Of a DNA stretch of 64,000 nt, positions 28,973 to 64,000 are shown piece by piece. Both the position numbers and the translations under genes were made by a program. The stretch is from positions 350,052,001 to 350,116,000 of the forward strand of contig OZ024741.1 of the NCBI GenBank assembly GCA_964016885.1. Reading direction: 5' to 3'. The notes under the pieces were generated by a model that saw only the letters and a list, made by a program, of their open reading frames with translations, was not told the origin of the DNA and ran no database searches. Origin of the DNA: Eledone cirrhosa (lineage: Eukaryota). The stretch's first letter is position 1, and the number at the start of each line of letters is the position of its first letter.

Positions 28973-29899
28973 GTGTGACAGCTCACACCTATGCAGGTTT
29001 AGCTGGCCCCCTCCAAGGTATATCTCGTTGGTGATACCCAGAAACATTAGTGTCTGCAGTTCTGTTCGCATGCCAACACAAGAGCAAGAATGAAGTGTTC
29101 ATTCTACTGACATGGCTATAAAATTGAGGCTTGTTTGCATAATTGCAAACGAATCGAATTTTATTATTAATATTCGAAAAACTCAGATTACATTTATTAT
29201 ATATATATATATATACACCTACACACATAATGATTTTCTGCTCTTCGATACAATGCAGATAAAAAATATAAAGATGGTATTGGGGCAAAAGGATGAAAAA
29301 ACAAAACAAAATAATGTTTTACCCATGATAATCTGCTTTACAACGAACGCAGAAAAACGAGACGTTCTTTGACTTACAGAAAAAGTCGGTGAATGTCCAC
29401 AGAGAAAATATCAGTGATATAATTCCTTACTCAGATCATCTAGATTCTCCTCAGATGAAGAAATCTACAGAACAGAACAACCCTTTATCTACAATCCACA
29501 GAGGTGAGCCTCACAAGCTGGAATGTCCCTTGCAGTGCATCTCTCTCACCATCCTCTGGGGAACCGCCTTCTCCATTCTGTCCGTCGGGGCCGCGGGGCG
29601 GCCAGCTCATGGGCCCTCATTTGTCCATAATAGTCAGAGATGAGGAGAGTGAGAGAGGCGGAGACAGTGACAGTGGGAGTTTGGTTCTTCTGTGTTCGCA
29701 CCTGGTGTATATATGTGTATATATGTGTATATATGTGTATATATATGTATATAAGAGAGAATGATTTTATTTTGTGAGAGAAATATTTGTGATATTAGAT
29801 CTAGAAGACCAAACTATATGTGTATAGACACGCAGTCGAGTATAACTTGGTATCAGCATGCACTGTTTCCAGATAAACATTTTAATGTGTGTGTGTGTG

Positions 29900-30150
29900 T
29901 GTAGATTTTGTCTCGAACTGGTAGAGCTCCTCGGTAGCACTGCCAGGCCAGAGACCTCTGGAAGTTATCCATAGGCCCTGGACGGAAAGTCCTCCCGAAC
30001 AGACTGGTCAGTTCGTCTTCCTCGATGCCTAGAGTTTCCCCGACAACGTCGTCGCACTTATCCTCCACTAATCCCCTATAGAATGTCGAAGTGAAGTCTC
30101 CGCTGATTGCCGTTTCCGCTTGGTAGAGAGCTGTGAGCGCCTGAAGGCAC

Positions 30151-30294: not shown

Positions 30295-30339
<45 letters not shown>

Positions 30340-30340
30340 T

Positions 30341-30400
<60 letters not shown>
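30295..30400. repeat. (GATA)n tract 1 (others: 31013-31085, 32836-32891, 35577-35674, 41510-41574)
   Basis: Direct reading. Confidence 0.95.
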
Positions 30401-31012
30401 TATTTCTTTATTAGCCACAGGGGCACAAAAGAAGGGGACAAATACAAAGGGGGAAGTTTACATACAATAAAAACGTGTAAAATGTTATCACAGATGGAAT
30501 TTAAAAGTTAGTCGATTTTCCCCAATAGAGGGAGACAGTTTATATGGGTAACACAGACCCCCGAAAAAAATGTGCAACCCTCATCTCCAGGAGTACGAAG
30601 AGCTTGTACTCCTTTCCTCTCCTCCTCCTTTTCCTCAACCTACAGGCTGATATAGAGAGAAGGCCCATTCACTCGGGCCATTCTCGCCACTTTCACCCAC
30701 CTTTCATAAAACTTGCTGGGGTACAGCACCTCTCTCTCCATCCTGATTCTTCTTCCAAAGTGGTATTTGAAAAAAAGAATCAGTTGTTGGCCGGAGAGAA
30801 AGGTGTCTGACCTCAGCCCTTTCAACCTTGTCCACCATACAACCTCTTTCGCCATAGCTATCACACAAAGGAAAACCGCCTCTCCTTCGTTTTTGAAGGA
30901 GGGTGGCGGTTTGATCATGACAATGGACTCGGTGGTCAACCGGATTGGTCCCACCCGCGACAATAGTCGTTCTACATAGCCCCACAGGTCAGTGACGCCC
31001 GGGCAGTGTATG

Positions 31013-31013
<1 letters not shown>
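30401..31013 (-). mobile_element. Tx1/L1-clade LINE copy 1 (~0.6 kb, 5'-truncated)
   Basis: ORF2 C-terminus (30640-31013) plus 3' UTR ending AATAAAGAAATA; (GATA)n on both sides. Confidence 0.92.
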
Positions 31014-31067
<54 letters not shown>

Positions 31068-31085
31068 AAGATAGATAGATAGATA

Positions 31086-32835
31086 TGCCCCTGTGGCTAA
31101 TAAAGAATTATTAGCCACAGGGGCACAAAAGAAGGGGACAAATACAAAGGGGGAAGTTTACATACAATAAAAACGTAAAATATTATCACAAATGTAATCT
31201 AAAAATTAGTCCATTTTCCCCAATAGGGGGAGACATTTCATATGGGTAACACATACCCCCGAAAAAAAATGTGCAACCCTCATCTCCAGGAGTACGAAGA
31301 GTTTGTACTCCTTTCCTCTCCTCCTCTTTTTCCTCAACCTACAGGCTGATATAGAGAGAAGGCCCATTCACTCGGGCCATTCTCGCCACTTTCACCCACC
31401 TTTCATAAAACTTGCTGGGGTACAGCACCTCTCTCTCCATCCTGATTCTTCTTCCAAAGTGGCATTTGAAAAAAAGAATCAGTTGTTGGCCGGAGAGAAA
31501 GGTGTCTGACCTCAGCCCTTTCAACCTTGTCAACCATACAACCTCTTTCGCCATAGCTATCACACAAAGGAAAACCGCCTCTCCTTCGTTTTTGAAGGAG
31601 GGTGGCGGTTTGATCATGACAATGGACTCGGTGGTCAACCGGATTGGTCCCACCCGCGACAATAGTCGTTCTACATAGCCCCACAGGTCGGTGACGCCCG
31701 GGCAGTGTATGAATGCGTGCGCGACGGTTTCTTCGTCTCGCACGCACCTCGGAAAGATCTTTTTTGCAGGGTCCCTGCCCGGGCGCCCATGTCTGTAGAG
31801 CTTGTCTCGAACTGGTAGAGCTCCTTGGTAGCACTGCCAGGCCAGGGACTTTTGGAAGTTGTCAATCGGTCCTACCGAACAGACTGGCCAGTTCGTCTTC
31901 CTCTAGGCCTAGAGTTTCACCGAGCACGTCGTCGCACTTGCTGCGGATCAACCCTCTATAGAATGACGAAGTAGAGTCTCCACTGATCGCCGGATCCGCC
32001 TGCCAGAGGGCTGTGAGCGCCTGAGCACATTCGATGTGCCAGTCGCCCATTTTCCTCAGTCTTTGCTTGACCCAGGACTGCAGCTCGGTCAGCGAGACGA
32101 GTCGTGGGAAGGCTCGCCTCACGAACGGGGCCCACACCGGTTGTCCGGTGAGGAATACGTAGAGATGCCGCAGCCTGAGCGTGTGTTTGCGGATCGTCAG
32201 ACACGGCAACCCCAGCCCTCCGTTGGAAGGGCGTTGGCAGCAGATGGATCTTCTCACCAAAGGAGCCCGCCTCTTCCAAAGGAATTGGAAGAGCGCGCGC
32301 TCCATTTTGGCGAGCGTTTTGGCTAGACAAGGCACGACGGTCAAGCGGTAGTAGATGACGGACGCTATAAAAGTGTTCGCCACCTCCGCTCAACCTTTCA
32401 ATGATAGTTTGCACTCGACCCACTTCTGGGTGAGTGCAAACACCTTGGCCGACACCTCGTTCCAGTTCTTCTCCACCTGGAGGTCCGGACCAAACCAGAC
32501 CCCGAGCAGCTTTACTGGTCCTTCCGTCCAGCGTCCGACGACGCCATCGGAAGGCATCGGTTTGCCTCTCCACGATCCGAGTTGCAAACCGATGGACTTG
32601 TCCCGGTTCAGCTTCGCTCCTGTGAAGCTTTCGTATTCCTTCAGTAAGGTGCTGACTTCCTCGATTTGCAAGGCGCTCGACACCACTACTGGCACGTCGT
32701 CGGCGTAGGCCGACGCCGCTTTCCGCAGTCCCGGTTCCAGAGGGATGCCCTGCAATAGCTCCAACTTCCGCAGTAGTGGCTCGGGAGTCAATACGTACAG
32801 AAGGGAGGAGAGAGGGCATCCCTGTCGAATGGATC
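31086..32835 (-). mobile_element. Tx1/L1-clade LINE copy 2 (~1.75 kb, truncated in RT at IRQGCP)
   Basis: Broken ORF2 with AYADD and CCHC; 3' end carries a fold-back; (GATA)n on both sides. Confidence 0.92.
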
Positions 32836-32872
<37 letters not shown>

Positions 32873-32891
32873 TGTAGATAGATAGATAGAT

Positions 32892-35576
32892 ATGTTTCTT
32901 TATTAGCCACAGGGGCACAAAAGAAGGGGACAAATACAAAGGGGGAAGTTTACATACAATAAAAACGTGTAAAATGTTATCACAGATGGAATTTAAAAGT
33001 TAGTCGATTTTCCCCAATAGAGGGAGACAGTTTATATGGGTAACACATACCCCCGAAAAAAATGTGCAACCCTCATCTCCAGGAGTACGAAGAGCTTGTA
33101 CTCCTTTCTTCTCCTCCTCCTTTTCCTCAATCTACAGGCTGATATAGAGAGAAGGCCCATTCACTCGGGCCATTCTCGCCACTTTCACCCACCTTTCATA
33201 AAACTTGCTGGGGTACAGCACCTCTCTCTCCATCCTGATTCTTCTTCCAAAGTGGTATTTGAAAAAAAGAATCAGTTGTTGGCCGGAGAGAAAGGTGTCT
33301 GACCTCAGCCCTTTCAACCTTGTCCACCATACAACCTCTTTCGCCATAGCTATCACACAAAAGAAAACCGCCTCTCCTTCGTTTTTGAAGGAGGGTGGCG
33401 GTTTGATCATGACAATGGACTCGGTGGTCAACTGGATTGGTCCCACCCGCGACAATAGTCGTTCTACATATCCCCACAGGTCAGTGACGCCCGGGCAGTG
33501 TATGAATGCGTGCGCGACGGTTTCTTCGTCTCGCACGCACCTCGGACAGATCTTTTTTGCAGGGTCCCTGCCCGGGCGCCCATGTCTGTAGAGCTTGTCT
33601 CGAACTGGTAGAGCTCCTCGGTAGCACTGCCAGGCCAGGGACTTTTGGAAGTTGTCCATCGGTCCCGGGCGGAAGGTCCTACCGAACAGACTGGCCAGTT
33701 CATCTTCCTCCACGCCTAGAGTTTCACCGAGCGCGTCGTCGCACTTGCTGCGGACCAACCCTCTATAGAATGACGAAGTGGAGTCTCCACTGATCGCCGG
33801 GTCCGCCTGCCAGAGGGCTGTGAGCGCCTGAGCACATTCGATGTGCCAGTCGCCCATTTTCCTCGGTCTCTGCTTGACCCAGGACTGCAGCTCGGTCAGT
33901 GAGACGAGTCGTGGGAAGGCTCGCCTCACGAACGGGGCCCACACCGGTTGTCCGGTGAGGAATACGTAGAGATGCCGCAGCCTGAGCGCGTGTTTGCGCA
34001 TCGTCAACCACGGCATCCCCAGCCCTCCGTTAGAAGGGTGTTGGCAGCAGATGGATCTTCTTACCAAAGGAGCCCGCCTCTTCCAAAGGAATCGGAAGAG
34101 GGCGCGCTCCATTTTGGCGAGCGTTTTGGCTGGACAAGGCACGACGGTCAAGCGGTAGTAGATGGCGGACGCTATAAAAGTGTTCGCCACCTCCGCTCGA
34201 CCTTTCAAGGATAGTTTGCACTCGGCCCACTTCTGGGTGAGTGCAAACACCTTGGCCGTCACTTCGTTCCAGTTCTTCTCCACCTGGAGGTCCGGACCAA
34301 ACCAGACCCCGAGCAGCTTTACCGGTCCTTCCGTCCAGCGTCCGACGACGCCATCGGAAGGCATCGGTCTGCCTCTCCACGATCCGAGTTGCAAACCGAT
34401 GGACTTGTCCCGGTTCAGCTTCGCTCCTGTGAGACTTTCGTATTCCTTTAGTTAGGTGCCGACTTTCTCGATTTGCGAGGCGCTCGACACCATTACTGTC
34501 ACGTCGTCGGCGTAGGCCGACGCCGCTTTCCGCAGTCCCGGTTCCAGAGGGATGCCCTGCAATAGCTCCAGCTTCCGCAGTAGTGGCTCGAGAGTCAGTA
34601 CGTACAGAAGGGAGGAGAGAGGGCATCCCTGTCGAATGGATCGCGTAATATGGAACGGCTCCGAGAGGTAACCGTTCACCTTGACCCTTGAGCAGATGTT
34701 GCTGTTGTGCATTGCAGCAATCCAGCCCCTGAACACGGGTCCGAAGCCTGCCGCCTCGAGCACCGCATCCAGGTAACGATGGTCAACCCTATCGAAAGCC
34801 TTAGACTGATCCAAGTTGATCAGGGCCCCACCGAAGCCGGGTTTACACCCTACCCTCTCTATGATGTATCGCATGAGGTGGAGGTTGTCGTGTATGGACC
34901 TGGTCGGGATCGCGCATGTCTGCGCTTCTCCCACCAGGTTCTTGACGACAAGCGCCAGCCTCTTTGCCAACACCTTGGCCAAAATCTGTAACTCTGTGTT
35001 TAGCAGAGTTATGGGCTGGAAGTTGCCTATGTCATCCCCCTTATTCTCGTCCTTCCTGATTAGTGTGACCACGCCCCCGGTTACAGAACTGGGAATTCTC
35101 CCGTTCTGTTGCCAGTTGTAGTAGACCGCTTCCAGGAGACCGGAGAATAAGTCCGGCATTGCTACGTAAAATTCGTAGGGTAGACCGTCGAGACCTGGAG
35201 ATTTGCGTTTGCCGCATTGGCTCAGCGCGTCCCCTATCTCAGTGGCTGAAATAGGCTTTTCGCAGAACTTTGCCTCGCTGTCCGAGAGTCGCGGCAGGCC
35301 GTCGAGGTATGGATCGAAATCCATAGCCTCTCCCCCCCCCCCCCCCCCCCCCAACAGTTGACAAAGTGCCGCTGAAAAGCCGCACACATCTGCTTCGGCT
35401 CACGTATCACGCGTCCGTTTTGGTCCTTCAAAGACCGAATCGTGGACTTGTTGCCACTTTTTGCCTCCGTCACTCGGGCCCAGCTAACAGCTTTGGCTCC
35501 CTCGTTTTCCAGAGCACGTATTTTGCTTCTGACAACGCAGCCCTCGTGCTTTGCGTCGAAGAACTGGTCCAAGGCC
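32892..35576 (-). mobile_element. Tx1/L1-clade LINE copy 3 (~2.7 kb, truncated between EN and RT)
   Basis: ORFs 34452-35387 (RT: DQSKAFD, IRQGCPLS, AYADD) and 33132-34394 (thumb, CPRC..H..C); 3' UTR nearly identical to copy 1. Confidence 0.93.
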
Positions 35577-35627
<51 letters not shown>

Positions 35628-35628
35628 T

Positions 35629-35674
<46 letters not shown>

Positions 35675-35888
35675 TTCTTTATTTACCATAAAGGCATAAA
35701 AAGAAGGGACAAATACAAAGGGGGAGTTTACATAAAACCGAGTAAAAAGGGTATAAAATGAAAATAATCGAAAACAACCTCAAAAGGGAGGGGACGTGAT
35801 GGGGGTTGCACACATACCCGAAAAAGTGTGCAATCCTTTTCCCGGGGAGCACATGGAGAGGGTGCTCCCTTCTCCTTCACTTCTTTAC

Positions 35889-38800
35889 CTACAGGATGGT
35901 ATACAGAGAAGGCCCATTTACACGAGCCATTCTCGCCACTATCACCCACCTTTCATAAAACTGCCTGTGGCCAAGCACCTCTCTCTCCATTCTTATCCTT
36001 CTTCCGAAGTGATATCGGAAGAAGTAGACCAGACTATGGCCAGAGAGGAAGTTGCCTGACCTCAGACCTTTCAATCGTGTCCACCAAACAACCTCTTTCA
36101 ACATGGCTATTACGCACAGAAAAACCGCCTTTGCTTCCTTTGTGAAGAGGGGAGGCGGCTTGATTGTCATCACGGACTCGGCGGTCAATCGAATCGGCGC
36201 CACCCGCGACAGCAGTCGTTCGGCGTAGCCTCACAGATCAGCCACGCCCGGACATTGCACCAATGCGTGCGCAACGGTTTCTTCGTGACGCACGCATCTA
36301 GGGCAAATCTTTTTCGATGGATCCCTGCCCGGGCGCCCGTGTCTGTAGAGCCTCTCTCGAACGGGTAGAGCCCCCCGGTAGCACTGCCAGGCTAGTGACT
36401 TCTGGAAGTTGTCCATTGGTCCCGGGCTGAAAGTCCTACCGAACAGGCTGGCCAGTTCGTCCTCTTCCATGTACAGCGACTCTCCAAGGGTGTCATCGCC
36501 CCTGCTAGCCACCAGCCCTCTATAGAATGATGAGGTGGATTCTCCACCGATTGCCGGGCCCGCTTGCCAGAGAGCCCTGAGCGCCTGGGCACACTCAGTG
36601 TGCCAGTTTCCTAGTTTTCCGGATCTTTGCTTGACCCAGGACTGCAGCTCGGTGAGCGAGACGAGTCTCGGAAAGGCTCGTTTCACGAACGGAGCCCACA
36701 CCGGTTGACCAGTGAGGAATACCTGTAGGTGCCGTAGCCTTAATGCGTGCCTACGCATCATCAACCACGGCATCCCCAGCCCTCCTTTCGAAGGTTGTTG
36801 GCAGCAGATGGATCTTCTCACCATAGGAGGGCGCTTCTTCCAAAGAAATTGGAAGAGCATGCGTTCCATGGTGGTGAGTGTTTCCTTAGGGCAAGGCACG
36901 ACAGTCAGGCGGTAGTAAGTGACGGACGCTATGTAAATGTTCGCCACCTCCGCCCGACCTTTTAGGGACAGCTTACACTTGGCCCATTTCTGGGTTAGTG
37001 CAAACACCTTGTTCGTAACCTCGTCCCAGTTCTTTTCCACCTGGAGGTCCGGTCCAAACCAGACCCCAAGCAACTTCACCGGGCCCTCCGTCCAGTGTCC
37101 GACGACACCGTCGGGAGGCATCGGTCTGCCTCTCCACGTTCCGAGTTGCAGCCCGATGGATTTTTCCCGGTTCAGTTTCGCTCCTGACAACCTTTCGTAA
37201 TCCTCCAGTAAGGTACCGATCGCCTCGATCTCCGAGTCGGTCGATACCATTACTGTTACGTCATCGGCGTAGGCCGACACCGCTTTGCTCAATCCTGGTT
37301 CCAGGGGGATACCCTGCAACAACTCCAACTTCCTCAGTAAAGGCTCGAGAGTCAATACGTACAGAAGGGAGGAGAGAGGGCACCCCTGTCGAATGGATCG
37401 TGTGATTTCGAACGGCTTCGAAAGGTAGCCGTTCACCTTGATCCTAGAACAGATGTGGTTGCTATGTAAGGCAGTGATCCAGCCTCTGAAAACAGGACCA
37501 AACCCAGCCGCCGCTAGCACCGCATCCAGGTAACCATGGTCGATCCTATCGAATGCCTTAGACTGATCCAAGTTGATCAGGGCCCCACCGAAGCCGGGTT
37601 TGTTGCCAACCCTCTCTATGATGTATCGCATGAGGTAGAGGTTATCGTGAATGGACCTGGATGGGATAGCACATGTCTGCGCATCTCCCACCAGGCCACC
37701 CACGACAAGCGCCAACCTCTTTGCTAACACCTTGGCCAAAATCTTTAACTCTGTGTTTAGCAGGGTTATGGGCCGAAAATTATTTATACTATCCCCCTTG
37801 TTCTCGTCCTTCCTCACCAGCGAGACTACGCCCTTGGCTACAGAACAAGGAATTCTCCCGTTCTGCTGCCAATTGTAGTAGACCGCTTCGAGGAGTTCGG
37901 AGAAGAAGACCGGCATTGCTAAATAAAGTTCGTAAGGTATACCATCGAGACCTGGAGATTTGCGTCTGCTGCATTGGCTCAGCGCATCCCCGATCTCATC
38001 AGCCGAGATTGGTCCCTCGCAGGACTCTGCCTCTTCGCTCGAGAGACGCGGCAGGCCGTCGAGGTATGGACCGAAATCCACGTCCCCGCCCGGACCCTCG
38101 CCTCCCCCGAATAATCGGACAAAGTGCCTTTGAAAGGCCTCGCACATCTGCTTAGGCTCCCGGATCACCCGTCCATCCTCGTCTTGCAAAGACCGGATGG
38201 TGGATCGATTTCCACTCTTAGCTTCTGTTACGCGGGCCCAGCCAACGGCTTTGGCCCCCTCATTACCTAGAGCACGTATTTTACTTCGAATGACGCAGCC
38301 TTCGTGCTTTGCATCGAAAAACTGGCTCAAGGCCGTCCTCGATGCCAGCACTCTGGCCACATCTTCGCTCTTGATTGCCTCTTCTAATTTACCTGTTAAT
38401 TCTTTCTCGTTTCTATTCCTATCGGCAGCTAACATCTTGCTATAACTTATTGATTCTGTTCTAATCTCTCTTTTGAGAGATGCCCACCATCGGTTGTTGA
38501 CGATTGCACCCATTAACCTCTCCTTAACTAATCTGCTAATCCGGTTTCTGTAAGTCTCTTTTGCCGGTAAAGACAAATTAAGTTTCCAGTAACTGGGACC
38601 CTGTTTATGTGTTTTCTCAAGATTGACTACGCAGGTCACTAATTTGTGATCCGTATAGCCAACCGTGAGCATTTCTGGACAGCTTAATATGTCCCTATCT
38701 TTACTTCTAACTAAGAATCTATCTAAGTACGATCTAGATTGACCACGGTGGTTCGTCCAAGTCCAGGTTGGCACAGTTGGAAAATCTAGTCGATATCTAT

Positions 38801-39326
38801 CGACCAAGTTAAAACGGTCGAGTAACCCCTTGAGGCTGTTACATCCTCCTCTATTAGGACATGCTCCTGCATAGTCCCAACGTGCATCTAGGATGTCATT
38901 CCAATCCCCCGCTAGAAGCAGGGAACGCGACGTTCCCAGAAAAGTCTCCAGACGCTGGAAGAAGTTGGGTCGTTCAGCTCCGAAAGGGGAGTAGACGGCG
39001 ACCAGTCTCAAGGCCGCACCTTCACTACTGTCAACGTCTAGCACCAACAAACGACCCTCCGGGTCCGAGTGAACAACCTGTACGGCGAGACCCAGGTGTT
39101 TTTCCAGCAGTACGACAACCCCACCCCCACCTCCAGGTTGACAGAGAGATGCATGCACCTCAAAGTCATCGAAGGTAGGGGCCAGCTGCCGCACGACGCT
39201 GATCCGAGTCTCACAGATAACCATTACATTTATACCACGTGACCTGAGGTCATTTAGAAGCTTTGCTTGCTTCCAAGTTGAGCCCAGGCCACGTGCATTC
39301 AAACATCCTACTCTTAACACATCCAT
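35889..39326 (-). pseudogene. Tx1 ORF2 (APE endonuclease-RT-CCHC), 1145 codons with one internal TGA at 36231-36233
   Basis: LNARGL, ICETR, VYSP, GDWND, YLDRF, YTDHK; FRPITLLN, DQSKAFD, IRQGCPLS, AYADD; CPRC-x8-H-x4-C. The stop falls where copies 2 and 3 have Trp (DLWGY), and ORF 35889-36203 continues in frame. Confidence 0.93.
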
Positions 39327-41271
39327 GTGGGCGGCAAAGCCTTTCTTCTTCCCGGGGTTCGGGTCGCACGACTTCCATGGGGTCGGGGGTGTTGGGTGAA
39401 GGAGTGTCTTGTGGTGGTGTGAGGTCGTCAGTGTGTGGTGGGGTTGGGGTGTTTGGAGTTGTGTTGGGGAGGGGAAGGGGAGGGGGAAAGCTTTTTAGTA
39501 GGACGCGGTTTATGGGTTTGACAGAGGGTGGTCCTACGTCCTCCTTAAAATCCTTTTTTAGTTTTTGGTAGAGGTTCATTGGGATCTTTATTAATTTTAA
39601 ATGTGGGTAGTTTTCTGAAGAAACAAAGTTTACACCTTCGGTTTGTACCGAAGGGTTATTGCTTATGAGTTCATTTAATTTATTATTGTTTCTGTTGATG
39701 TAAGTATAGTGTAATGTCTTTTTTTCGGATGGTGTGAGTGTTTCGAAGAGGGGAGGGGCAGGTTTGGTTTTGTTTGTTGCTGGAGGGGTGTTTTGTGTTT
39801 TGTTGGATTGTGTTGACATTTGGGTAGGGGTTGTTTGGCCTTGTGTGTTTTGCACATGTTTTCTTTTTTTCCTTTTAATCTGTCTGAAGGACTCCGTTTC
39901 TTCCTTCGAATTCGTTGGGTTATCTTCAGTGTTGGAGGGAAGAGGTATGTTTGCTGGTAATGTTTCCGGGTTGGTTTTCTTTGTGGGGGAGATGGATGTC
40001 ACTATGTTAGACTGTGCTGTGTGTTGTAGCTGCGGTGGTTGTGTTGTTTTATTGAGTGAGGGGTTGGGTGGGACTGTGTTTTGTTTTTGGGTAATGTGTT
40101 GTGACTGTTTGTGTTGTGGTGGTGGTGTAGTTTTACTGAGGGACGGGTTGGGTGGGACTGAGTTTTGTTGTTTGTTTATCTGTTGTGGTGGTGGTGGAGC
40201 TGGTGTTGGTAGCAGGGTTTTCTTCTTGTTGAGTTGGGGACAAGCCGCCTTCAGGTGCCCTCTGCCTGCACAGATATGACAGGACGGCCTTCTCCCCTCC
40301 ACGCTAATGTTTATATACCCGTGGCCCTCTAATAGGATTCTGTCGGGTATTTGGGCAATGCGTTCAGGCTTCATTTGCACTACAAGTTCTATACCTGTTC
40401 CACTGAACGCATTGCCTGTGGTTTTCCCAATGGAAATCACGTTGTCATTCGCTGGATCGATGAAGCCAGCTATGAACCAGCAGTAGTCCACATCTGGCAT
40501 ATGTAGTCCGCATCCAGCCATATGCGCTGAGTTCTTTTACCCATATAAGATGGATAAAAGGTAAAATTTGTCGAACGAATCGGCGACAAAGCATATTTTT
40601 TTGCCGCCGATTCGTTCTTCATAATAATCGCTAGGCTTCCATACAGTCTGTCTCTTCTTATGAAAGTGGTTTCATTAAGTACTTCTGTAAGTACTGCTTT
40701 GATTTCTGTTTGTGTTGGTTGTTGAGGTTTTTTAGAAATGTTGATGGTGCGGAAAACGACCGTCCGACTTTCAATGTCTTTGGTGAGTTCTTGAGGCATT
40801 TTTACCGATAAAATACCATTTTCCCCTTGAGTTATGTATTGTTTGGCGTTTTTAATTCTTTGTGCCACATCTGAAATATTTTCAGGTATATATGTCAAAG
40901 ATTTCTTTGTTGTTTGTGCAAATGAAATATTATTGGTGTTGACTTTGTCGTCTGCTTTGCTTTCTGTTATGATGTTGTTTTCAAATGTTATTTTTGTGTT
41001 TGTTGTGTCTTTGTTTGTGGTATTAATATTGTCATGCAATTTTTCAAACTTTTTTTTGTTGTTGGAATCAATGTCCAGATTTGTGTTTTCGTCATTTTTC
41101 TCTGCACATTCGTCTGTTTTTATTTTATTTTTTCTTTCCTTCTCTATGACGTTAGTTGGGAAGGAAGGGGGTACTAAAGCGTGCGAGCTTACAACTCTTA
41201 CCGCTCTCCCCCCCCCCCCCCCCCCCCCCACCACCACCACCACCACTATTTTCGTTAGCTTCGTTTAACAT
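39250..41271 (-). pseudogene. Tx1 ORF1 (zinc-knuckle nucleic-acid-binding protein), frameshifted
   Basis: CHICAGRGHLKAAC = CX2CX4HX4C followed by a Pro/Thr/Gln-rich region. Split into 40470-41246 and 39250-40521. Likely ATG at 41271, ahead of a poly-G run. Homologous to 60730-61422. Confidence 0.8.
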
Positions 41272-41508
41272 TTCTGTCAGACGATTGAAATTTTATGCGA
41301 CAAAATTTTTAAAAACAGGTTTTCCACCCCTGGGAGGGGCGAAGATGAGCTGACCCACCGCCTGACAGTTCAGACGGGGGGTCAAGCTACACAATAGTAT
41401 CAAAATTAAAATTGAACTTACAAAATTTCCGCAATAAATTGGAACAAAACTTCTGCGCGAAGTGAATTACATCTACGCTGTAGAACAGACGACAGCTAGA
41501 TCATCTTT

Positions 41509-41574
<66 letters not shown>

Positions 41575-45020: not shown

Positions 45021-45058
45021 CACACATACTAACACATACACACACACACACACACACA

Positions 45059-45632
45059 CTCAGTTGAGATAGCAATACACATACACACATACACACACAC
45101 ACTCAGTTGAGATTGCAATACATACACACACACACACATACATACACACACTCAGTTGAGATTGCAACACACACACATACACACACAGTTGAGATTGCAA
45201 TACACACACACACACATACACACACTCAGTTGAGATTGCAATACATACACACACACACACATACATACACACACTCAGTTGAGATTACAATACACACACA
45301 TACACACACTCAGTTGAGATTACAATACACACACATACACACACTCAGTTGAGATTGCAATACACACACACATACATACACACACTCAGTTGAGATTGCA
45401 ACACACACATACACACACACTCAGTTGAGATTACAATACACACACATACACACACTCAGTTGAGATTGCAATACACACACACATACATACACACACTCAG
45501 TTGAGATTGCAACACACACACATACACACACTCAGTTGAGATGGCAATACACACACACACACACACATACACACACTCAGTTGAGATTGCAATACACACA
45601 CACACACATACACACACTCAGTTGAGATTGCA

Positions 45633-45666
<34 letters not shown>

Positions 45667-45959
45667 TCAGTTGAGATTACAATACACACACACACACACT
45701 CAGTTGAGATTGCAACACACACACACACACACACACACTCAGTTGAGATTGCAACACACACACATACACACACACACTCAGTTGAGATTGCAACACACAC
45801 ACATACACACACACACTCAGTTGAGATTGCAACACACACACATACACACACACACTCAGTTGAGATTGCAACACACACACATACACACACACACTCAGTT
45901 GAGATTGCAATACACACACATACACACACACATACACACACACACTCAGTTGAGATTGC

Positions 45960-45998
<39 letters not shown>

Positions 45999-47010
45999 AG
46001 TTGAGATTGCAACACACACACACATACATACACTCAGTTGAGATTGCAACACACACACATACATACACTCAGTTGAGATTGCAACACACACACATACACA
46101 CACTCAGTTGAGATTGCAACACACACACACACACACACACATACACACACTCAGTTGAGATTGCAATACACACACATACACACACTCAGTTGAGATTGCA
46201 ATACACACACACATACACACACTCAGTTGAGATTGCAATACACACACACATACACACACTCAGTTGAGATTGCAACACACACACACACACACTCAGTTGA
46301 GATTGCAATACACACACACATACATACACACACACTCAGTTGAGATTGCAACACACACACATACACACACTCAGTTGAGATTGCAATACACACACACACA
46401 CACACACACTCAGTTGAGATTGCAATACACACACACACACACACATACACACACTCAGTTGAGATTGCAATACACACACACACTCAGTTGAGATTGCAAT
46501 ACACACACACATACATACACACACACTCAGTTGAGATTGCAACACACACACATACACACACTCAGTTGAGATTGCAATACACACACACACACACACATAC
46601 ACACACTCAGTTGAGATTGCAATACACACACACATACACACACTCAGTTGAGATTGCAATACACACACACATACACACACTCAGTTGAGATTGCAATACA
46701 CACACACACACACACACATACTCAGTTGAGATTACAATACACACACACACACACTCAGTTGAGATTGCAACACACACACATACACACACACACTCAGTTG
46801 AGATTGCAACACACACACATACACACACACACTCAGTTGAGATTGCAATACACACACATACACACACACATACACACACACACTCAGTTGAGATTGCAAC
46901 ACACACACACACACACACACTCAGTTGAGATTGCAATACACACACACATACATACACTCAGTTGAGATTGCAACAAACACACATACACATACACACTCAG
47001 TTGAGATTGC

Positions 47011-47049
<39 letters not shown>

Positions 47050-47150
47050 ACACACACACTCAATTGAGATTGCTATACACACATACACACACACACTCAG
47101 TTGAGATTGCAACACACATACACACACACACTCAGTTGAGATAGCTATAC
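45059..47150. repeat. Minisatellite: constant CTCAGTTGAGATTGCAA with variable-length (CA/TA)n linkers, about 53 units
   Basis: Counted by eye; three more copies at about 43271, 43391 and 43550. Confidence 0.92.
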
Positions 47151-47397
47151 ACACACATACAACCTCATACTTCTATATAATCCTACATCTATTCAAATAA
47201 GATATAATAAAACATATCCTTAGAAAAAATATTTTTAACATACACATACATAAATATGCACGAAAACATACACAACATTACAGGTGGATGTATATATGTA
47301 TATGTACATAAACACACAGACACATACAAGCACATTCAAACACACATGTTCATGCATACACACACACATACACATATGTATATATTTATGTGTGTGC

Positions 47398-49996: not shown

Positions 49997-52900
49997 CAAT
50001 AATAATAACGACAACAACAATAATAATATACATATACATATATATGTACACATACACGCACACACATAAGCATATCTATACACACGCACACACACGATAG
50101 CAACTAACAGCGCTGCGATCGAATGTGGCTTTTTAGCCCAGCCAATGATCTAAAATGTCTTGCACAGAGTCGGCAACCAAAACATTCACTGGGAATAGTT
50201 GGCTGTGGATGGAGTTCGTGTACTTTTGCATGTCGCTTGAGCCCTCCTGCTGATTTACATTCTCTACCACATGTTTGGCAAGCATGATGAGTAGCATCTC
50301 CAACAGCAGCCTGGTAGTCAACCACTGGTCTTACTTTATGACTGCGAAGATGACTTTCGAGTCCAGCTTTGCTTAGGCAGAGTTTCGCACAGACGCTGCA
50401 TGTCAGCACCATAGCAGGACCCTCGCCGTCTGGAAGTGCAACAGCAATGCCCTTCCTCACATCCCGCTTTACTTTCTCGTATGCGATTCGAGATGCCTCA
50501 AAGGCAACTTTTCCCTCATATACAGTCTTTCTCCATTTATTACGATCAGCAGCAATATTCTCCCATGTATCAGCAGAGATGTTAGCGTCTTTCAGAGAGG
50601 CTTTCAAGGAATCCTTATACCTCTTTTTTGGTTTATGTGGCGGTCGTTTTCCTTTAACCAACTCTCCATAAAAGAGTTGTTTTGGTATTCTAGAATCCTT
50701 CATCCTGGCAAGGTGACCACTCCAACGGAGTCGTTGCTTAAGCACAAGAGCTTCTATACTGTCACACATAGAGCTTTCCAAAATCTCAACATCACTGATG
50801 TGGTTCCTCCAGTGAACGCCATGGATCCGTTTGAGACACATCTGATGGAAACGCTCCAATTGCTTAAGGTGGTGTCGATATGTGACCCAGGTCTCGCAGG
50901 CATAAAGAAGACAAGAGAGCACACATGCCCTGTACACCTTTACCTTTGTCCTCCTGCATATGTCTCGCCGACCCCAGAGTCGCCTTTCTAGCTTTCCGAA
51001 AGCATCACTTGCTTTCCTAATCCTAAGTGAGATTTCACTGTCAAGGTTGCTGTATCGATTGACAGTGCTTCCCAGGTAGACAAACTGATCAACCACTCCA
51101 AGTCGTTTGCCAGACACATAGATGTTTGGTTCAGTGTACTGCTTACCAGGAGCAGGTTGGTACATGACGACGGTTTTCTTGAGACTGACAGTCAATCCTA
51201 GGCCAATGCAAGCGTCAGAAAATGCATTCAAAATGTGCTGCATATCACTCTCTGTGTGCGCTACAAGATCGCAATCATCTGCATACAAGAGGTCTCTTAT
51301 GATTGATATAAATACTTTTGTCTTCGCAGCAAAGCGCCTGATGTTAAATATGCTGCCTGAGGTTCGATATCGGATGTAAACACCATGCTCGCAATTCCTG
51401 AATGCAATACAGAAAACCATTGCAAAATATATGGTAAACAGGGTCGGTGCTGGAATATCCCCCTGTTTCACTCCATTTTTTACTGAGATAGGCTCCGACA
51501 TGTTACCTCCAACATTAACCCAAGCCTTCATGTCGTCATGGAAAGACCTAACTAAAGCAAGGAACTTATCAGGGCAACCAAGTTTCTGGAGAACCTTCCA
51601 TAATGCATCTCTGTTAACAGTATCGAAAGCTTTTGTCAGATCGACAAAAACCTGATACAGATCCAAGCCTTGTTCCATGCACTTCTCCTGGAGCTGTCTA
51701 GCTGAGAAGATCATATCAGTAGTGCCGCGTCCAGCACGAAAACCAGATTGACTTTCAGGAAGAACACAATCTGCAATGTGTGTCAGCAGACGGTCCAGAA
51801 GCACCCTACATAAAACTTTCCCTACGACAGAAAGCAATGATATACCTCTGTAGTTCCCACAATCATTCATGTTACCCTTTCCCTTGTACAAGACCACCAT
51901 TACTGCATCTCTCCAGTCCTCAGGTACGGATTCATTAGCCCATATCCTGCCAAACAAAGAGTGAAGATGCTGCAGGAGTCTCTCACCACCATATTGTAGG
52001 AGCTCAGCATGTATGCTATCCATACCAGGAGATCTTCCACTGTTCAGCTTCGAAATAGCCACTGCAACCTCCACAGGCGTCGGAGGTTCTGCGAGAGCTA
52101 CTTTCACAGGACTTTCTGGAATGAGATTGAGGAAATCTTCACTGACGACAGACGGCTGATTCAAAAAATCATCAAAGTGCTCTCGCCACCTTCGTAGAAT
52201 TCCTTGTGAGTCACGAAGAAGTTCTTTGCCATCCTTGCTGCGAAGCGGTGTCACCAAAGAAGAAGACGGTCCATAAACCTCACGCAAGAGACTGTACAAC
52301 AGCTTTGTGTTATTGGAATCTGACGCAGTTTGTATCTCACCAGCCTTCTCACTCCACCACTGATCCTTCATCTGAGAAAGACTCCGCCTAACACGTGATT
52401 TTATATCCCTGAGTTCCTCGTGCAACGTATTCCTCTCCTGTGGTTTTGCCGTCAAGTAGCGTGACAGAGCACGCCTCTTATCAGCCAACAAGTCTTCTAT
52501 ATGTACATCATTCTCATTAAACCAGTCCTGATGTTTTCTCTGCACCAATCCCAGAACACGCCTGCCTACATCATAAACCGACTTTTTAAGGGTCGGCCAA
52601 TCCTCACCAAGATTTGCAGCCTGCATCTCTTCTTCCAATGTCCTCTTCACATTTTTATCATTAAGACGAGCAGCATTCAATCTTTTGGGCAGGGCAATAC
52701 CAGGAGCCCGGATTTTACGTTTAGTGATTAGTTTCACTTTTTCGCGTACCAGGCGGTGGTCCGTCCAGCACTCAGCTCCACGAAGAGCACGAACACACTG
52801 CACATCCTGTCTGTCACGCATCCTGACTAGGACGTAGTCCAAAAGATGCCATTCCTTAGATGCAGGATGCATCCATGTGGTCTTGAATTTGTTCTTTTGT

Positions 52901-60634: not shown

Positions 60635-60739
60635 CTACACCCACTATGTGTACACCAATGATAATGTAATTATATGGTGGATCTCCTCTTTCTCTCTCTC
60701 TGTCTTTCATTCCTATCACAATTTCGTTTTTGTTATGTT

Positions 60740-63700
60740 GCGGGGAAAAAATTGCAAAGGTCAAGGTAACCCAGGTCCTGCCCTACGTACCCGTGCCTTG
60801 GCTGGTCGTGTCTGTTCTAGCGGGCATCGAAGATAAAACAACCATTCTGCAGGTACAGAAGTTGGGGAGAGAGGACTGGTCCGGTATTGGAATGGAGATG
60901 CTCATCCAAACCGACCAGGACTGCATCAGCGCTATACCCGACGTAATAGACCTCGGGAATGGCTCCCAACTTCCCATATCTGTTGAAGGAAGGCGCCCAA
61001 AGTGCTTCAACTGTGGATCAAAGTCTCACCTCAAGGCTTTCTGCCCACAGAAAATAACAAAGGCCAAGGTCACCCTCCTTCCAACGCCGAAACCGCTGCC
61101 ATCAGAAACAGAGCAGTCAGCTTCTGCAGAGAATAGGAAGACAACGTCCATGGCACTCACACCAAAGCCACGGACAACAAAAACAGCGACGGAAGCTGCA
61201 GCAACAGAAACAGTTGCGCTAGCTGCACCTGTGCCAAGAACAGCAAAGCAGGCTCCACCACCACTACCAACAACAACAACACAAAAGACAAATGAGAGGG
61301 TAGAACTCATACCCCTCCCCGACCTCTCACGCTCGGACATGGAGTATGAGGCGGCTGAGGAGTGGAAAACGGTTGTTAACAACAAAAAAACAAACGAAAA
61401 AATACCACAGCTCCTCCCCTAAAAGCGAAGGCAAAGAAAGAAGGATAAAGACTGCAAGGATACTTGCAGCAACACCACCAAAAATCACCATCACCACTAC
61501 AGTATCACCACCAACAACAACCACACCACCACCAGCATCACCAAAAACACCAACATCACAAACACAACGAAGCACACATACCCAACAGCAACAATAAGAA
61601 AACAGCAACAAAACCACTCCTCCCCCAAAAAGTACACAGCCATAAACATTGCACACCAAGGACTAATGGAATACATAAAACAGCACACCAATATTTCAGA
61701 CGTAAATTACTACACACCACCAACACCAAGAACATTACCAAAAAATATTAACATTGTTGAAATTGAACTCGAAAGTTACAAACAACTGACACAAAAATTC
61801 CCCAACTGTGTTGGGGATTTCAGGGGACCACTCTCCAAGAGAATCTACAAAGATATCGTCTTGGAGACACCCATGACCAACCGAGGGGAGGGTTCTACTG
61901 TCCCTTCCGCACACGATCAAGGTAAGTGATCCTTTCTCACTTGCCCCGTTCCTCATCCAACATGGCCGTACTTAGAATAGGCAGCATAAATGTACGTGGC
62001 CTGGGGTCATCTTGGAACCAGGGTCACCTGCTCAACGACCTCAGGTCACTAAACATAGATGTGGTGGCCATCAGCGAGAACAGAATCTCCGAAGCACGAG
62101 CCTTCGCACCGATCTTCGGCGGCTACGATGTATACGCATCTCCCAGCCGTCCAGGATCGGGGGGGGGGGGAGGGGTTGCCGTCCTTTTTCGGAGAGACTT
62201 GGATCTCGTCATACGGGCCATCTTCCTGGACCTAGAAGGTAAGTCGGTGGTGCTGGACGTGACCGGCAGCGAAGGCAAAGCTTTCAGGCAGGTAGTGGTC
62301 TATGCCCCAACATGCTCAGGACGGCCAGATTTCTTCAGACGTCTGGAGACCTTTCTTGGAACGTCCCACTCTTTAGTGTTAGTGGCGACTGGAACTGTAT
62401 CTTAGATGCACGCTGGGATTATGTGGGGCTAGTAGACAGGGCAGGAGGGTGTAAAAGCCTCAACAACCTGCTCAGACGTTTTGAACTGGCTGACAGGTAT
62501 AGACTGGATTATCCGAATGTGCCAATGTGGACATGGGCAAACCGCATCGAGTCATCCAGATCGTATTTAGATAGGGTATTACGTAGGGAAACAGATAAGG
62601 CTAGTGTAGGTTGTCCACAATTTAAAGTAGTCGACTACACGGACCACAAATGCCTGACCTGTGAAGTTGACTTAGATAGACTCCATAGGCAAGGGCCCGG
62701 TTACTGGAAACTGAACGCGTCTTTCCCGGCGGGAAAATCTTACAGAGACCGGATTAGCGAATTAGTTAAGCTTGCGTTGACGGGTACGATCGTCAACAAC
62801 AGGTGGTCGTTTAACCTAAAAAGGGCTATTAGAGTAGAATCGATAAGGTTTAGCAAGGGAGTAGTGATAGAGGAAAATAGAGTAGAGGAAGAGTTAGTTA
62901 GAAAGCTAGAAGAGGCGTTTAGGACAGGCATCGCAACCGACGTGCTTGCGGCAAGATTGGCACTCGACCAATTCTTCAACGCAAAGCATGAAAGCTGCGT
63001 TGTCAGAGCTAGAGCGCGTGCTCTAAGACATGGGGGGGGGACGAAAGCCGTTCAATGGGCCCGGGTGGTGGAGGCGTGACGTGGCAACAAGTCCACAATT
63101 CGGTCTTTGCCTGATTAAAACGGGTGCATGTTGCTCGAACCCGAGCAGATGTGTGCGGATTTTCAACAGCACTTTGCTCAATTGTTCGGGAGAGGCGGCG
63201 GGCCGGATCGGAGTATGGACTTCGGTGCATACCTCGACGGACTGCCGCGGCTCTCGACGAGAGCGATAACAGCAGATGAAATACGGGAAGCGATGTCTGA
63301 CTGCACGTGGGGTAAATCACCAGCTTTGGATGGCCTGCCCTACGAGCTTTATGCGTATATGCCAGACTTGTTCGGCGACCTCTTGGCAGATGTCTACTGC
63401 AACTGGGAATGCTCCCGTTCTGCAGAACGGGAGCATTCCCAGTTTTGTGAGCCGGGGAGCGGTGGCGCTGCTAAGAAAAGACCCGAACAAGACGTTATAG
63501 ACAACTTCAGGCCCATAACTCTGCTAAACGCAGAGTTTAAGATTTTGGCCAAGGTGTTAGCAAAGAGATTGGCGCTTGTTGTCGGTGATCTGGTGGGAGA
63601 GGCACAGACATGAGCCATTCCGGACAGATCCATCCATGACAACCTCCATCTCATGCGATACATCATAGAGAGGGTGGTTAAGGAACATGGCACAGGTGGG

Positions 63701-64000
63701 ACCCTGGTCAACTCCTGAACAATCTAAAGCATTTGGAAGGGACAGGCTCCCATGGTCAGACGATCCATTTGCTGTCAACACCCGTTGCGTGGAGGACTAG
63801 GCATGCCGTGGCTGATGATGCGCAAACATGCGCTGAGGCTGTGACATCTCTGGTGCTTCCTTGGCGGTGAACAGGTGTGGTCGCCGTTTGCCAGACGCGT
63901 TTTGCCCCAGCTCGTCTCCTTGACGGAGCTGCAGTCCTGGATCAGGAAAAGACCGAGGGATAGCGCTTGGAAGCTGGAATGTCTCCAAGCGCTCACCGCC
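60740..64000 (+). mobile_element. Second, decayed Tx1/L1-clade LINE (runs off the window)
   Basis: ORF1 remnant ISVEGRRPKCFNCGSKSHLKAFCP. ORF2 from ATG 61962 (MAVLRIGSINVRGL, YLDRV, YTDHK, FRPITLLN) with several frameshifts and a deletion near 63735. Confidence 0.9.

What the first reader, a model, noticed from the sequence alone, without database searches (positions are those of the whole stretch)
30295..41574. Stack of four Tx1-clade LINEs each inserted in (GATA)n: candidate (GATA)n-microsatellite-targeting retrotransposon
Seen: five (GATA)n tracts alternate with four same-orientation LINE copies of about 0.6, 1.75, 2.7 and 5.8 kb. Each copy has a different 5' breakpoint. There are at least three sequence variants: copies 1 and 3 share a 3' UTR, copy 2 differs and copy 4 is far more divergent, so this is not a tandem duplication. 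The 3' ends read AATAAAGAAA directly into (TATC)n with no poly-A. The 5' end of the full-length copy also abuts (GATA)n (41510-41574), which cannot be its own tail. Established: Tx1-group APE LINEs include sequence-specific families (Kibi/Koshi in TC/TTC microsatellites, Keno, Dewa, Mutsu). Inference: this lineage's endonuclease targets (GATA)n in a fixed orientation and repeatedly re-inserts in one microsatellite. I do not know of a described GATA-specific Tx1 family but cannot search for one.
Basis: partly seen in the sequence, partly recalled or inferred. Interest (0 to 1): 0.9.

Follow-up and report, generated by a model that had tools for sequence, protein, structure and literature searches.

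The report
GATA-repeat-targeting LINE stack with ATT sister
Four copies of a jumping gene sit head to tail inside one GATA repeat, about 14,600 element ends in this genome stop at the same repeat letters while a sister branch stops at ATT repeats, likely because each branch's DNA-cutting enzyme reads its own short target; repeat-seeking elements of this kind are known, but I did not find this target described.

Summary
Observation confirmed, with two corrections: copy 2 ends in a 22-bp fold-back, and the 'full-length' copy 4 is broken (ORF1 frameshift, early ORF2 stop). The (TATC)n is a target, not a tail. 62 of 77 genomic copies have it at the 5' junction (29 of 41 truncated ones; 0 of 77 in the opposite orientation; background 3 of 1736 tiles). 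One nucleotide inside an unrelated RTE (660 empty copies) is filled 26 times by five subfamily ends, with 7-18-bp duplications; six other TATCT sites of that RTE are never filled, although three match a read-through RNA better. So DNA recognition of about C|TATMTRT, likely by the endonuclease, explains site choice better than RNA pairing alone. A sister branch with the same 3' end uses (ATT)n (13,419 ends against 14,620 TATCT ends of 33,300), and target follows the endonuclease tree. Caveat: full-length family A copies carry a short TATC-like head of their own. Tx1-clade membership could not be tested with named references; no nicking assay exists. This scan already noted the lineage on other DNA of this genome many times. 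Verdict: new target variant of the known microsatellite-targeting Tx1-type LINEs.

The parts
30295..30400 (.). (GATA)n tract 1, 3' flank of copy 1 (reads (TATC)n on the element strand)
30401..31012 (-). Copy 1, 5'-truncated, family A, 99.3% to a full-length genomic copy (L145); ends AATAAAGAAA-TA
31013..31085 (.). (GATA)n tract 2
31086..32835 (-). Copy 2, 5'-truncated, older family A variant (95.5% to L145); last 22 bp (31086-31107) are an inverted copy of its own 3' end
32836..32892 (.). (GATA)n tract 3
32893..35576 (-). Copy 3, 5'-truncated, family A (99.1% to L145); ends AATAAAGAAA-CA; reading frame broken at a long G run near 35340 and by a stop near 34452
35577..35674 (.). (GATA)n tract 4
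35675..41508 (-). Copy 4, full length, family B (96.9% to L173); family 5' start at about 41501 after 7 extra bases; ends AATAAAGAAA-TC; defective
39250..41264 (-). ORF1 of copy 4, split over two frames; CCHC zinc-knuckle motif
35889..39326 (-). ORF2 of copy 4: AP-type endonuclease (about 39326-38620), reverse transcriptase, zf-RVT; premature stop at 36233-36231
41509..41574 (.). (GATA)n tract 5, 5' flank of copy 4
29895..30150 (-). Fifth, internal fragment of another subfamily of the TATC branch, between (TA)n and (CA)n, no 3' end
60739..64000 (+). Degraded copy of the sister branch whose members sit in (ATT)n; runs off the window

Best explanation
This is a stack of four separate insertions of an L1/Tx1-type LINE lineage whose copies land in one fixed register and orientation at a short TATC-like site, likely because the element's own endonuclease recognises and nicks that site. 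Shown by sequence: every insertion joins AATAAAGAAA + two subfamily bases to a target that starts TAT(C/A)T, usually after a C, and duplicates up to about 20 bp of it; no poly(A) and no obligatory repeat tail is laid down. Inferred: the endonuclease nicks the GATA strand at about 5'-AYAKATA^G-3'; the freed 3' end primes reverse transcription of the element RNA (target-primed reverse transcription, established for LINEs); the second strand is cut about 17-20 bp further on, and 5' joining by microhomology shortens some duplications. A (TATC)n array offers this site every 4 bp, and each insertion leaves repeat on both sides, so later copies of any subfamily land beside earlier ones and build one-directional stacks. 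A read-through RNA ending in UAUC units may help to prime in register (as described for R1Bm and SART1) but would not choose the site by itself. A sister branch with the same 3' end has an endonuclease that differs at about 29 of 235 positions and uses (ATT)n.
For: 5' junctions: 62 of 77 index copies have two or more TATC units within 30 nt, 0 of 77 have them in the GATA orientation, 29 of 41 truncated and 33 of 36 full-length copies; background 3 of 1736 and 7 of 1209 tiles. 3' junctions: 75 of 77 read NN+TAT(C/A)T; genome-wide 14,620 of 33,300 family ends read NN+TATCT and 13,419 NN+ATTAT, controls 0-16. Duplications that include non-repeat letters start two bases after AATAAAGAAA in 19 of the 20 copies picked for this, with C just upstream in 17 of those 19; in 6 of the 20 the target starts TATAT or TACAT and the 3' end then shows no TATC at all. 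One site in an unrelated RTE is empty in 660 copies and filled in 26 by ends TA 10, CA 10, GA 3, TC 2, TT 1, with different truncations and duplications of 7-18 bp in the 15 of 26 that were resolved. Six other TATCT sites of that RTE, each present in 4-9 of 12 empty loci, have 0 fills, though three match (TATC)3 better (8-9 of 12 against 7 of 12). Target follows the tree: one change on the endonuclease tree (99/99), the RT tree and a DNA tree; 11 of 11 full-length ATT-branch 5' ends abut (ATT)n, 0 of 11 TATC. Stacking is general: 21 of 77 copies have another 3' end within 200 nt upstream. Contigs of other public runs show short truncated copies running into GATA repeat at their 5' side (6 of the 11 such loose-end rows shown).
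Against: No biochemical test. 15 of 77 copies lack TATC at the 5' junction; some have clean duplications in TA-rich unique DNA, others are interrupted or fused to other copies. 11 of 14 full-length family A 5' ends share a TCTCTATC variant, so part of the 5' repeat there is carried by the element. The pattern could only match fills without extra TATC units, so it shows that tail-less insertions are common, not that tails never occur. In 2 copies (L181, L185) the 3' duplicate is closer to TATC than the 5' one, as RNA templating would give; in 2 others (L043, L176) it is the reverse. Copy numbers of the six unused RTE sites are estimates from 12 loci. The 77 copies are the best matches to the window's copies, not a random draw, and include one probable duplicate pair (L186, L187). 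Tree clustering of a label among kin does not show that the endonuclease causes it: RT and 3' region split the same way. In human L1, grafting the Tx1L hairpin loop did not transfer Tx1L specificity (PMC1950540, passages).
Confidence: 0.8

Rival explanations
1. RNA-guided choice: the endonuclease nicks TA-rich DNA loosely, and only nicks whose 3' end pairs with the UAUC (or AUU) repeat read through from the donor's flank are used for priming. The target would then be inherited from the flank, not from the protein.
For: All TATC-branch ends keep one register relative to the repeat. Family A carries target-like letters at its 5' end (11 of 14), so flank is co-copied. L181 and L185 show 3' duplicates closer to TATC than the 5' ones. 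Pairing of RNA with the nicked target is proposed for SART1 and R1Bm (PMC7265360, passages).
Against: The RTE site that is used matches (TATC)3 at 7 of 12 positions; unused sites match at 8-9 of 12, one with six contiguous matches. The base upstream of the duplication, which the primer strand cannot pair with RNA, is C in 17 of 19 copies and in 5 of 7 where the upstream letters are not TATC. TATAT targets, which mispair at position 4, are used.
Confidence: 0.13
2. The repeat is only an element-made tail, as in CR1, L2 or RTE elements; copies insert at random and the arrays and stacks arise from tails.
For: Nearly all 3' ends are followed by the repeat; a tail gives that too. Copies inside stacks have an upstream neighbour's 3' repeat at their 5' end (21 of 77).
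Against: Truncated copies have the repeat at their 5' junction (29 of 41); fills of the RTE site and of TATAT sites have no repeat at the 3' end; 26 independent fills hit one nucleotide of a repeat whose empty form is known.
Confidence: 0.04
3. Passive accumulation, recombination between copies or misassembly made the stack.
For: No read or contig spans the stack. Copy 2's fold-back end was seen at this locus only among the loci held. Passive accumulation near (CA)n is proposed for Drosophila Waldo-A/B (PMC3812793, passage).
Against: Four different breakpoints and three sequence classes; base-precise register; 0 of 77 in the opposite orientation; the sister branch avoids TATC and uses ATT; similar stacks occur at many loci.
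Confidence: 0.03

Closest known systems
Kibi (TC)n and Koshi (TTC)n, teleost Tx1 clade (Kojima and Fujiwara 2004, not read; seen as cited in PMC4494074 and PMC3812793, passages)
   Same: AP-endonuclease LINE of the L1/Tx1 type that inserts specifically into a microsatellite
   Different: Target here is (TATC)n or (ATT)n, not a pure purine/pyrimidine repeat; relationship by tree not tested
Crocodilian Tx1 families in (TTCC)n/(TTTC)n (Tx1-1_Crp group; PMC4494074 section 15, passage)
   Same: Tetranucleotide microsatellite preference, change of target between related Tx1 families
   Different: Different repeat; here two branches with different targets are abundant in one genome (14,620 and 13,419 ends) and include near-identical young copies
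Tx1L of Xenopus laevis (PMC1950540, passages)
   Same: Sequence-specific AP-type endonuclease as the proposed targeting device
   Different: Tx1L hits one site in another transposon and its nicking was shown in vitro; here the site is short, degenerate and untested
SART1/TRAS1 in (TTAGG)n and R1Bm (PMC7265360, passages); Waldo (ACAY)n, Mino (AC)n, Dong (TAA)n (PMC3812793, passage)
   Same: Repeat-targeted insertion in fixed register; about 10-12 bp recognised; RNA-target pairing can help priming
   Different: Other clades (clade labels R1 and R4 recalled); SART1 lays down poly(A), this lineage does not
Human L1 ORF2p (best solved-structure match, E 6e-52)
   Same: Endonuclease-RT architecture, duplications of up to about 20 bp, frequent 5' truncation
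   Different: L1 nicks TTTT/AA and primes on poly(A); no poly(A) here

Membership tests
L1/Tx1 group non-LTR retrotransposon | ORF2 with N-terminal AP-type endonuclease, RT and C-terminal zf-RVT | tested here: met
   Pfam PF03372, PF00078, PF13966 on window ORF2 and on L145; best PDB match human L1 ORF2p E 6e-52 against R2 2e-22 (only L1 and R2 proteins matched)
L1/Tx1 group non-LTR retrotransposon | Separate ORF1 with a CCHC zinc knuckle (feature recalled, not from a call) | tested here: met
   Open ORF1 of about 640 codons in genomic copies with a visible CX2CX4HX4C motif; Pfam zf-CCHC only E 0.24, below cut-off
L1/Tx1 group non-LTR retrotransposon | 5' truncation and target-site duplication | tested here: met
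Tx1 clade | RT phylogeny groups it with named Tx1 elements (Tx1L, Keno, Kibi, Koshi) | not testable with these tools
Target-specific Tx1 family (criterion of PMC4494074: target in over 20% of flanks) | One kind of sequence in more than 20% of flanks | tested here: met
   62 of 77 5' flanks and 75 of 77 3' junctions
Kibi / Koshi / crocodilian TTCC-TTTC families | Target (TC)n, (TTC)n, (TTCC)n or (TTTC)n | tested here: not met
   Junctions start TAT(C/A)T or ATTAT; works like them but is not filed under them
Endonuclease-targeted LINE (as Tx1L, R1Bm, TRAS1) | Purified endonuclease nicks the integration site specifically | not testable with these tools
   Indirect support only: used against unused RTE sites, upstream C, tree

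The most novel reading that the evidence does not exclude
One young, very abundant LINE lineage has split into a (TATC)n-reading and an (ATT)n-reading branch by a change of a few endonuclease surface residues (candidates: positions 47-66 and 194 of ORF2), keeps the same RNA 3' end, and in family A also carries a piece of target at its 5' end for joining by homology. Tens of thousands of natural insertions with empty paralogous sites would then give a readable code for how an AP-type endonuclease changes target, and these elements would be a main force shaping where GATA and ATT microsatellites are split and multiplied in this genome.
Probability: 0.35. Interest if true: 0.7.

Novelty: new variant of a known kind. 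Interest (0 to 1): 0.5.

Why it matters
How AP-endonuclease LINEs pick microsatellites is described as not well understood (PMC3812793, passage), and loop grafts in L1 did not simply transfer specificity (PMC1950540, passages). Here two sister branches with about 60% identical endonucleases, a shared 3' end and different targets exist in one genome in over ten thousand copies each, with a natural used-versus-unused site control inside an RTE. That makes the question directly testable with two small proteins and a handful of oligonucleotides. It also matters for annotation and for GATA microsatellite markers in this animal, whose flanks will often be repetitive. The behaviour itself (microsatellite-targeting Tx1-type LINEs) is known, so a specialist would be interested more than surprised.

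Tried and rejected
Tandem duplication: rejected by breakpoints and identities. Tail-only reading: rejected. Naming the clade: 61 homologues and 10 cluster look-ups gave no Tx1 name; the ESM Atlas gave only unnamed EN-RT-zf-RVT clusters; the search for shorter annotated relatives could not be made. Checking the assembly: public runs hold only short contigs or reduced-representation reads that pile on from all copies; none spans the stack, and the repeat beside copy 2's fold-back was skipped, so its lack of cover says nothing. DNA tree: with row L318 the label needed two changes; L318 is an internally deleted copy whose segment matches ORF1, not the 3' region, and without it and the 5 unlabelled rows one change suffices. 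One endonuclease (L326), sister to the ATT branch, is an inverted fragment with no linked 3' end, so the direction of the switch is unresolved. L172 was dropped from the 78 index copies because its 3' end did not chain; the two window copies were left out of the 80 matches. A control on another LINE family's flanks was not run; the ATT branch and background tiles served as controls. Literature: nine answered searches showed no GATA/TATC-targeting LINE in their listings; Repbase, Kojima and Fujiwara 2004, Figure 3 and the supplements of PMC4494074 could not be seen and may hold such a family.
Full report
Observation. Tandem Repeats Finder gives five (GATA)n tracts at the stated places. Between them lie four minus-strand LINE copies: c1 30401-31012, c2 31086-32835, c3 32893-35576, c4 35675-41508. 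c1 and c3 are 99.0% alike, c2 is 95-97% to them, c4 73-80%. c4's ORF2 has endonuclease, RT and zf-RVT matches; the best solved-structure match of a family A ORF2 is human L1 ORF2p (E 6e-52; R2 proteins 2e-22). The host taxon was not determined by my calls; 'octopus-like' was my recalled impression when I searched papers and is also the label in earlier scan notes.

Genome context. The window lies in a 3.0-Gb genome. The 3' ends of c3 (family A) and c4 (family B) have 790 and 2133 first-look candidates, of which 40 each were scored. Family A is young: most of the 39 index copies are over 99% identical to L145, and 6 of the 23 long family A loci hold a stop-free ORF2 frame of 1150 codons. A 17-letter 3'-end motif occurs 33,300 times (control 16); 14,620 of these continue NN+TATCT and 13,419 NN+ATTAT.

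Target or tail. I took the 80 matches, left out the two window copies, fetched long stretches where needed and resolved both ends in 77 of 78. Two or more TATC units lie within 30 nt of the 5' junction in 62 of 77 (29 of 41 truncated, 33 of 36 full length); in the GATA orientation in 0 of 77; (ATT)3 in 0 of 77. Background is 3 of 1736 tiles in the window and 7 of 1209 in unrelated loci. A second set of full-length family B 5' ends gave 25 of 29. These are best matches, not random draws. Among 20 copies picked because their duplication includes non-repeat letters, it starts two bases after AATAAAGAAA in 19 (one ambiguous), is about 15-21 bp long, and is preceded by C in 17 of 19; six targets start TATAT or TACAT and show no TATC at the 3' end. 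Over 144 distinct TATC-branch ends the first seven flank bases are T142 A142 T142 C129/A14 T140 A131 T137.

Empty sites. Two sampled copies (L020, L224) sat at the same base of an unrelated RTE-type LINE. That site is empty in 660 exact copies and filled in 26. The fills come from five subfamily ends, differ in truncation (one insert is only 13 bp with a 16-bp duplication) and duplicate 7-18 bp in the 15 of 26 that were resolved within 1.5 kb. The pattern could not match fills with added TATC units, so this shows that tail-less, base-precise insertion is common, not that tails never occur.

Protein or RNA. The same RTE has other TATCT sites. Six of them, each present in 4-9 of 12 empty loci, were sought as fills with two degenerate patterns; the 4 and 11 matches returned are none of the six. 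Three unused sites match (TATC)3 better than the used one, and two unused sites have the upstream C but lack the purine at +6 or the T at +7. Pairing with a read-through RNA alone does not predict this; a recognised site of about C|TATMTRT does. RNA pairing may still help priming, as proposed for SART1 and R1Bm (PMC7265360, passages).

Sister branch. A relative at 60739-64000 of the window led to a branch that ends AATAAAGAAA+NN+ATTATT; 11 of 11 full-length 5' ends found abut (ATT)n and none TATC, and these copies stack too. The label changes once on the endonuclease tree (10 TATC, 12 ATT rows, 99/99), once on the RT tree and once on a DNA tree of 29 cluster representatives (two changes before a non-homologous row was removed). 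Kin share labels, so this does not prove that the endonuclease is the cause. About 29 positions differ in near-fixed fashion between 10 TATC and 11 ATT endonucleases (one degraded ATT row left out), with a cluster at 47-66 and one (194, mostly S against I) in the stretch that aligns with the L1 hairpin loop.

How the stack forms (inferred). Each insertion duplicates repeat on both sides, the array presents a site every four bases in one orientation, and so later copies of any subfamily land beside earlier ones; 21 of 77 copies have another 3' end within 200 nt upstream. The stack at this locus was not confirmed by spanning reads, but contigs of other runs show truncated copies that run into GATA repeat at their 5' side (6 of 11 rows shown; the best-holding runs may be the assembly's own sample).

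Comparison with what is known. Microsatellite-targeting Tx1 families are known: Kibi (TC)n, Koshi (TTC)n, crocodilian families (TTCC)n/(TTTC)n (PMC4494074, passages); other clades use ACAY, AC and TAA (PMC3812793, passages). Tx is described as a target-specific group near L1 (PMC3747384, passages). An Octopus vulgaris repeat annotation lists 13 recently active L1-Tx1 families; the passages read give no target (PMC13282606). Nine searches (listings only, except the six papers named) showed no GATA/TATC target; Repbase, the 2004 paper, and the figure and supplements of PMC4494074 were not seen. It works like Kibi/Koshi, is not a member of them by target, and its place in the Tx1 clade rests on architecture and behaviour, not on a tree with named members. 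Earlier notes of this scan report the same lineage and both target classes on other pieces of this genome; they are not independent support. The empty-site and unused-site tests did not appear in the 16 notes shown.

Verdict. Real feature; sequence-directed insertion at a TATC-type site is well supported, the endonuclease as its cause is likely but untested. New target variant of a known kind; interest 0.5.

Noticed in passing
window 60739-64000 (+), continuing to about G000:C2:350116800 (L091): Degraded copy of the sister branch that sits in (ATT)n; its 3' end region appears doubled (two 3' UTR tails in a row in L091).
   Followed up: partly
window about 50050-53700 (-): RTE-type LINE with one open frame of 1206 codons (clade label from recalled motifs), flanked by (ATT)n on both sides; may be a young copy with its own preference for ATT repeats.
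   Followed up: partly
window 31086-31107: Copy 2 ends in a 22-bp fold-back of its own 3' end; seen in no other locus held. Template switch at priming or an assembly error.
   Followed up: partly
L279 (G000:C28:48819427-48822454), also L271, L283: Minimal insertions at the RTE site: 13 bp of element end with a 16-bp duplication (L279); L271 and L283 replace a few target bases by the last element bases through a shared GCTAATAA-like stretch. Such scars are a hidden mutational footprint of the lineage.
   Followed up: partly
L120, L142-L145, L147, L148, L153, L159, L160, L318: Full-length family A copies share a TCTCTATC variant in the repeat just upstream of their 5' end (11 of 14): a target-like head copied with the element.
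   Followed up: partly
window 45036-47161: Satellite of about 39-bp period built from (CA)n plus a fixed 16-letter unit, next to 2 kb of degenerate (CA)n and 0.9 kb of (GGT)n.
   Followed up: no
G000:C1:143.30-143.80 Mb: Fourteen same-strand copies of the RTE empty site at alternating spacings of about 17 and 42 kb: a large tandem segmental array.
   Followed up: no
L186 and L187 (G000:C2:142.07-142.11 Mb): Two family B insertions with the same flanks 23 kb apart: local duplication or redundant assembly.
   Followed up: no
L203, L237, L214: ATT-branch copies often sit directly behind the (ATT)n end of a short repeated element that looks like a SINE.
   Followed up: no
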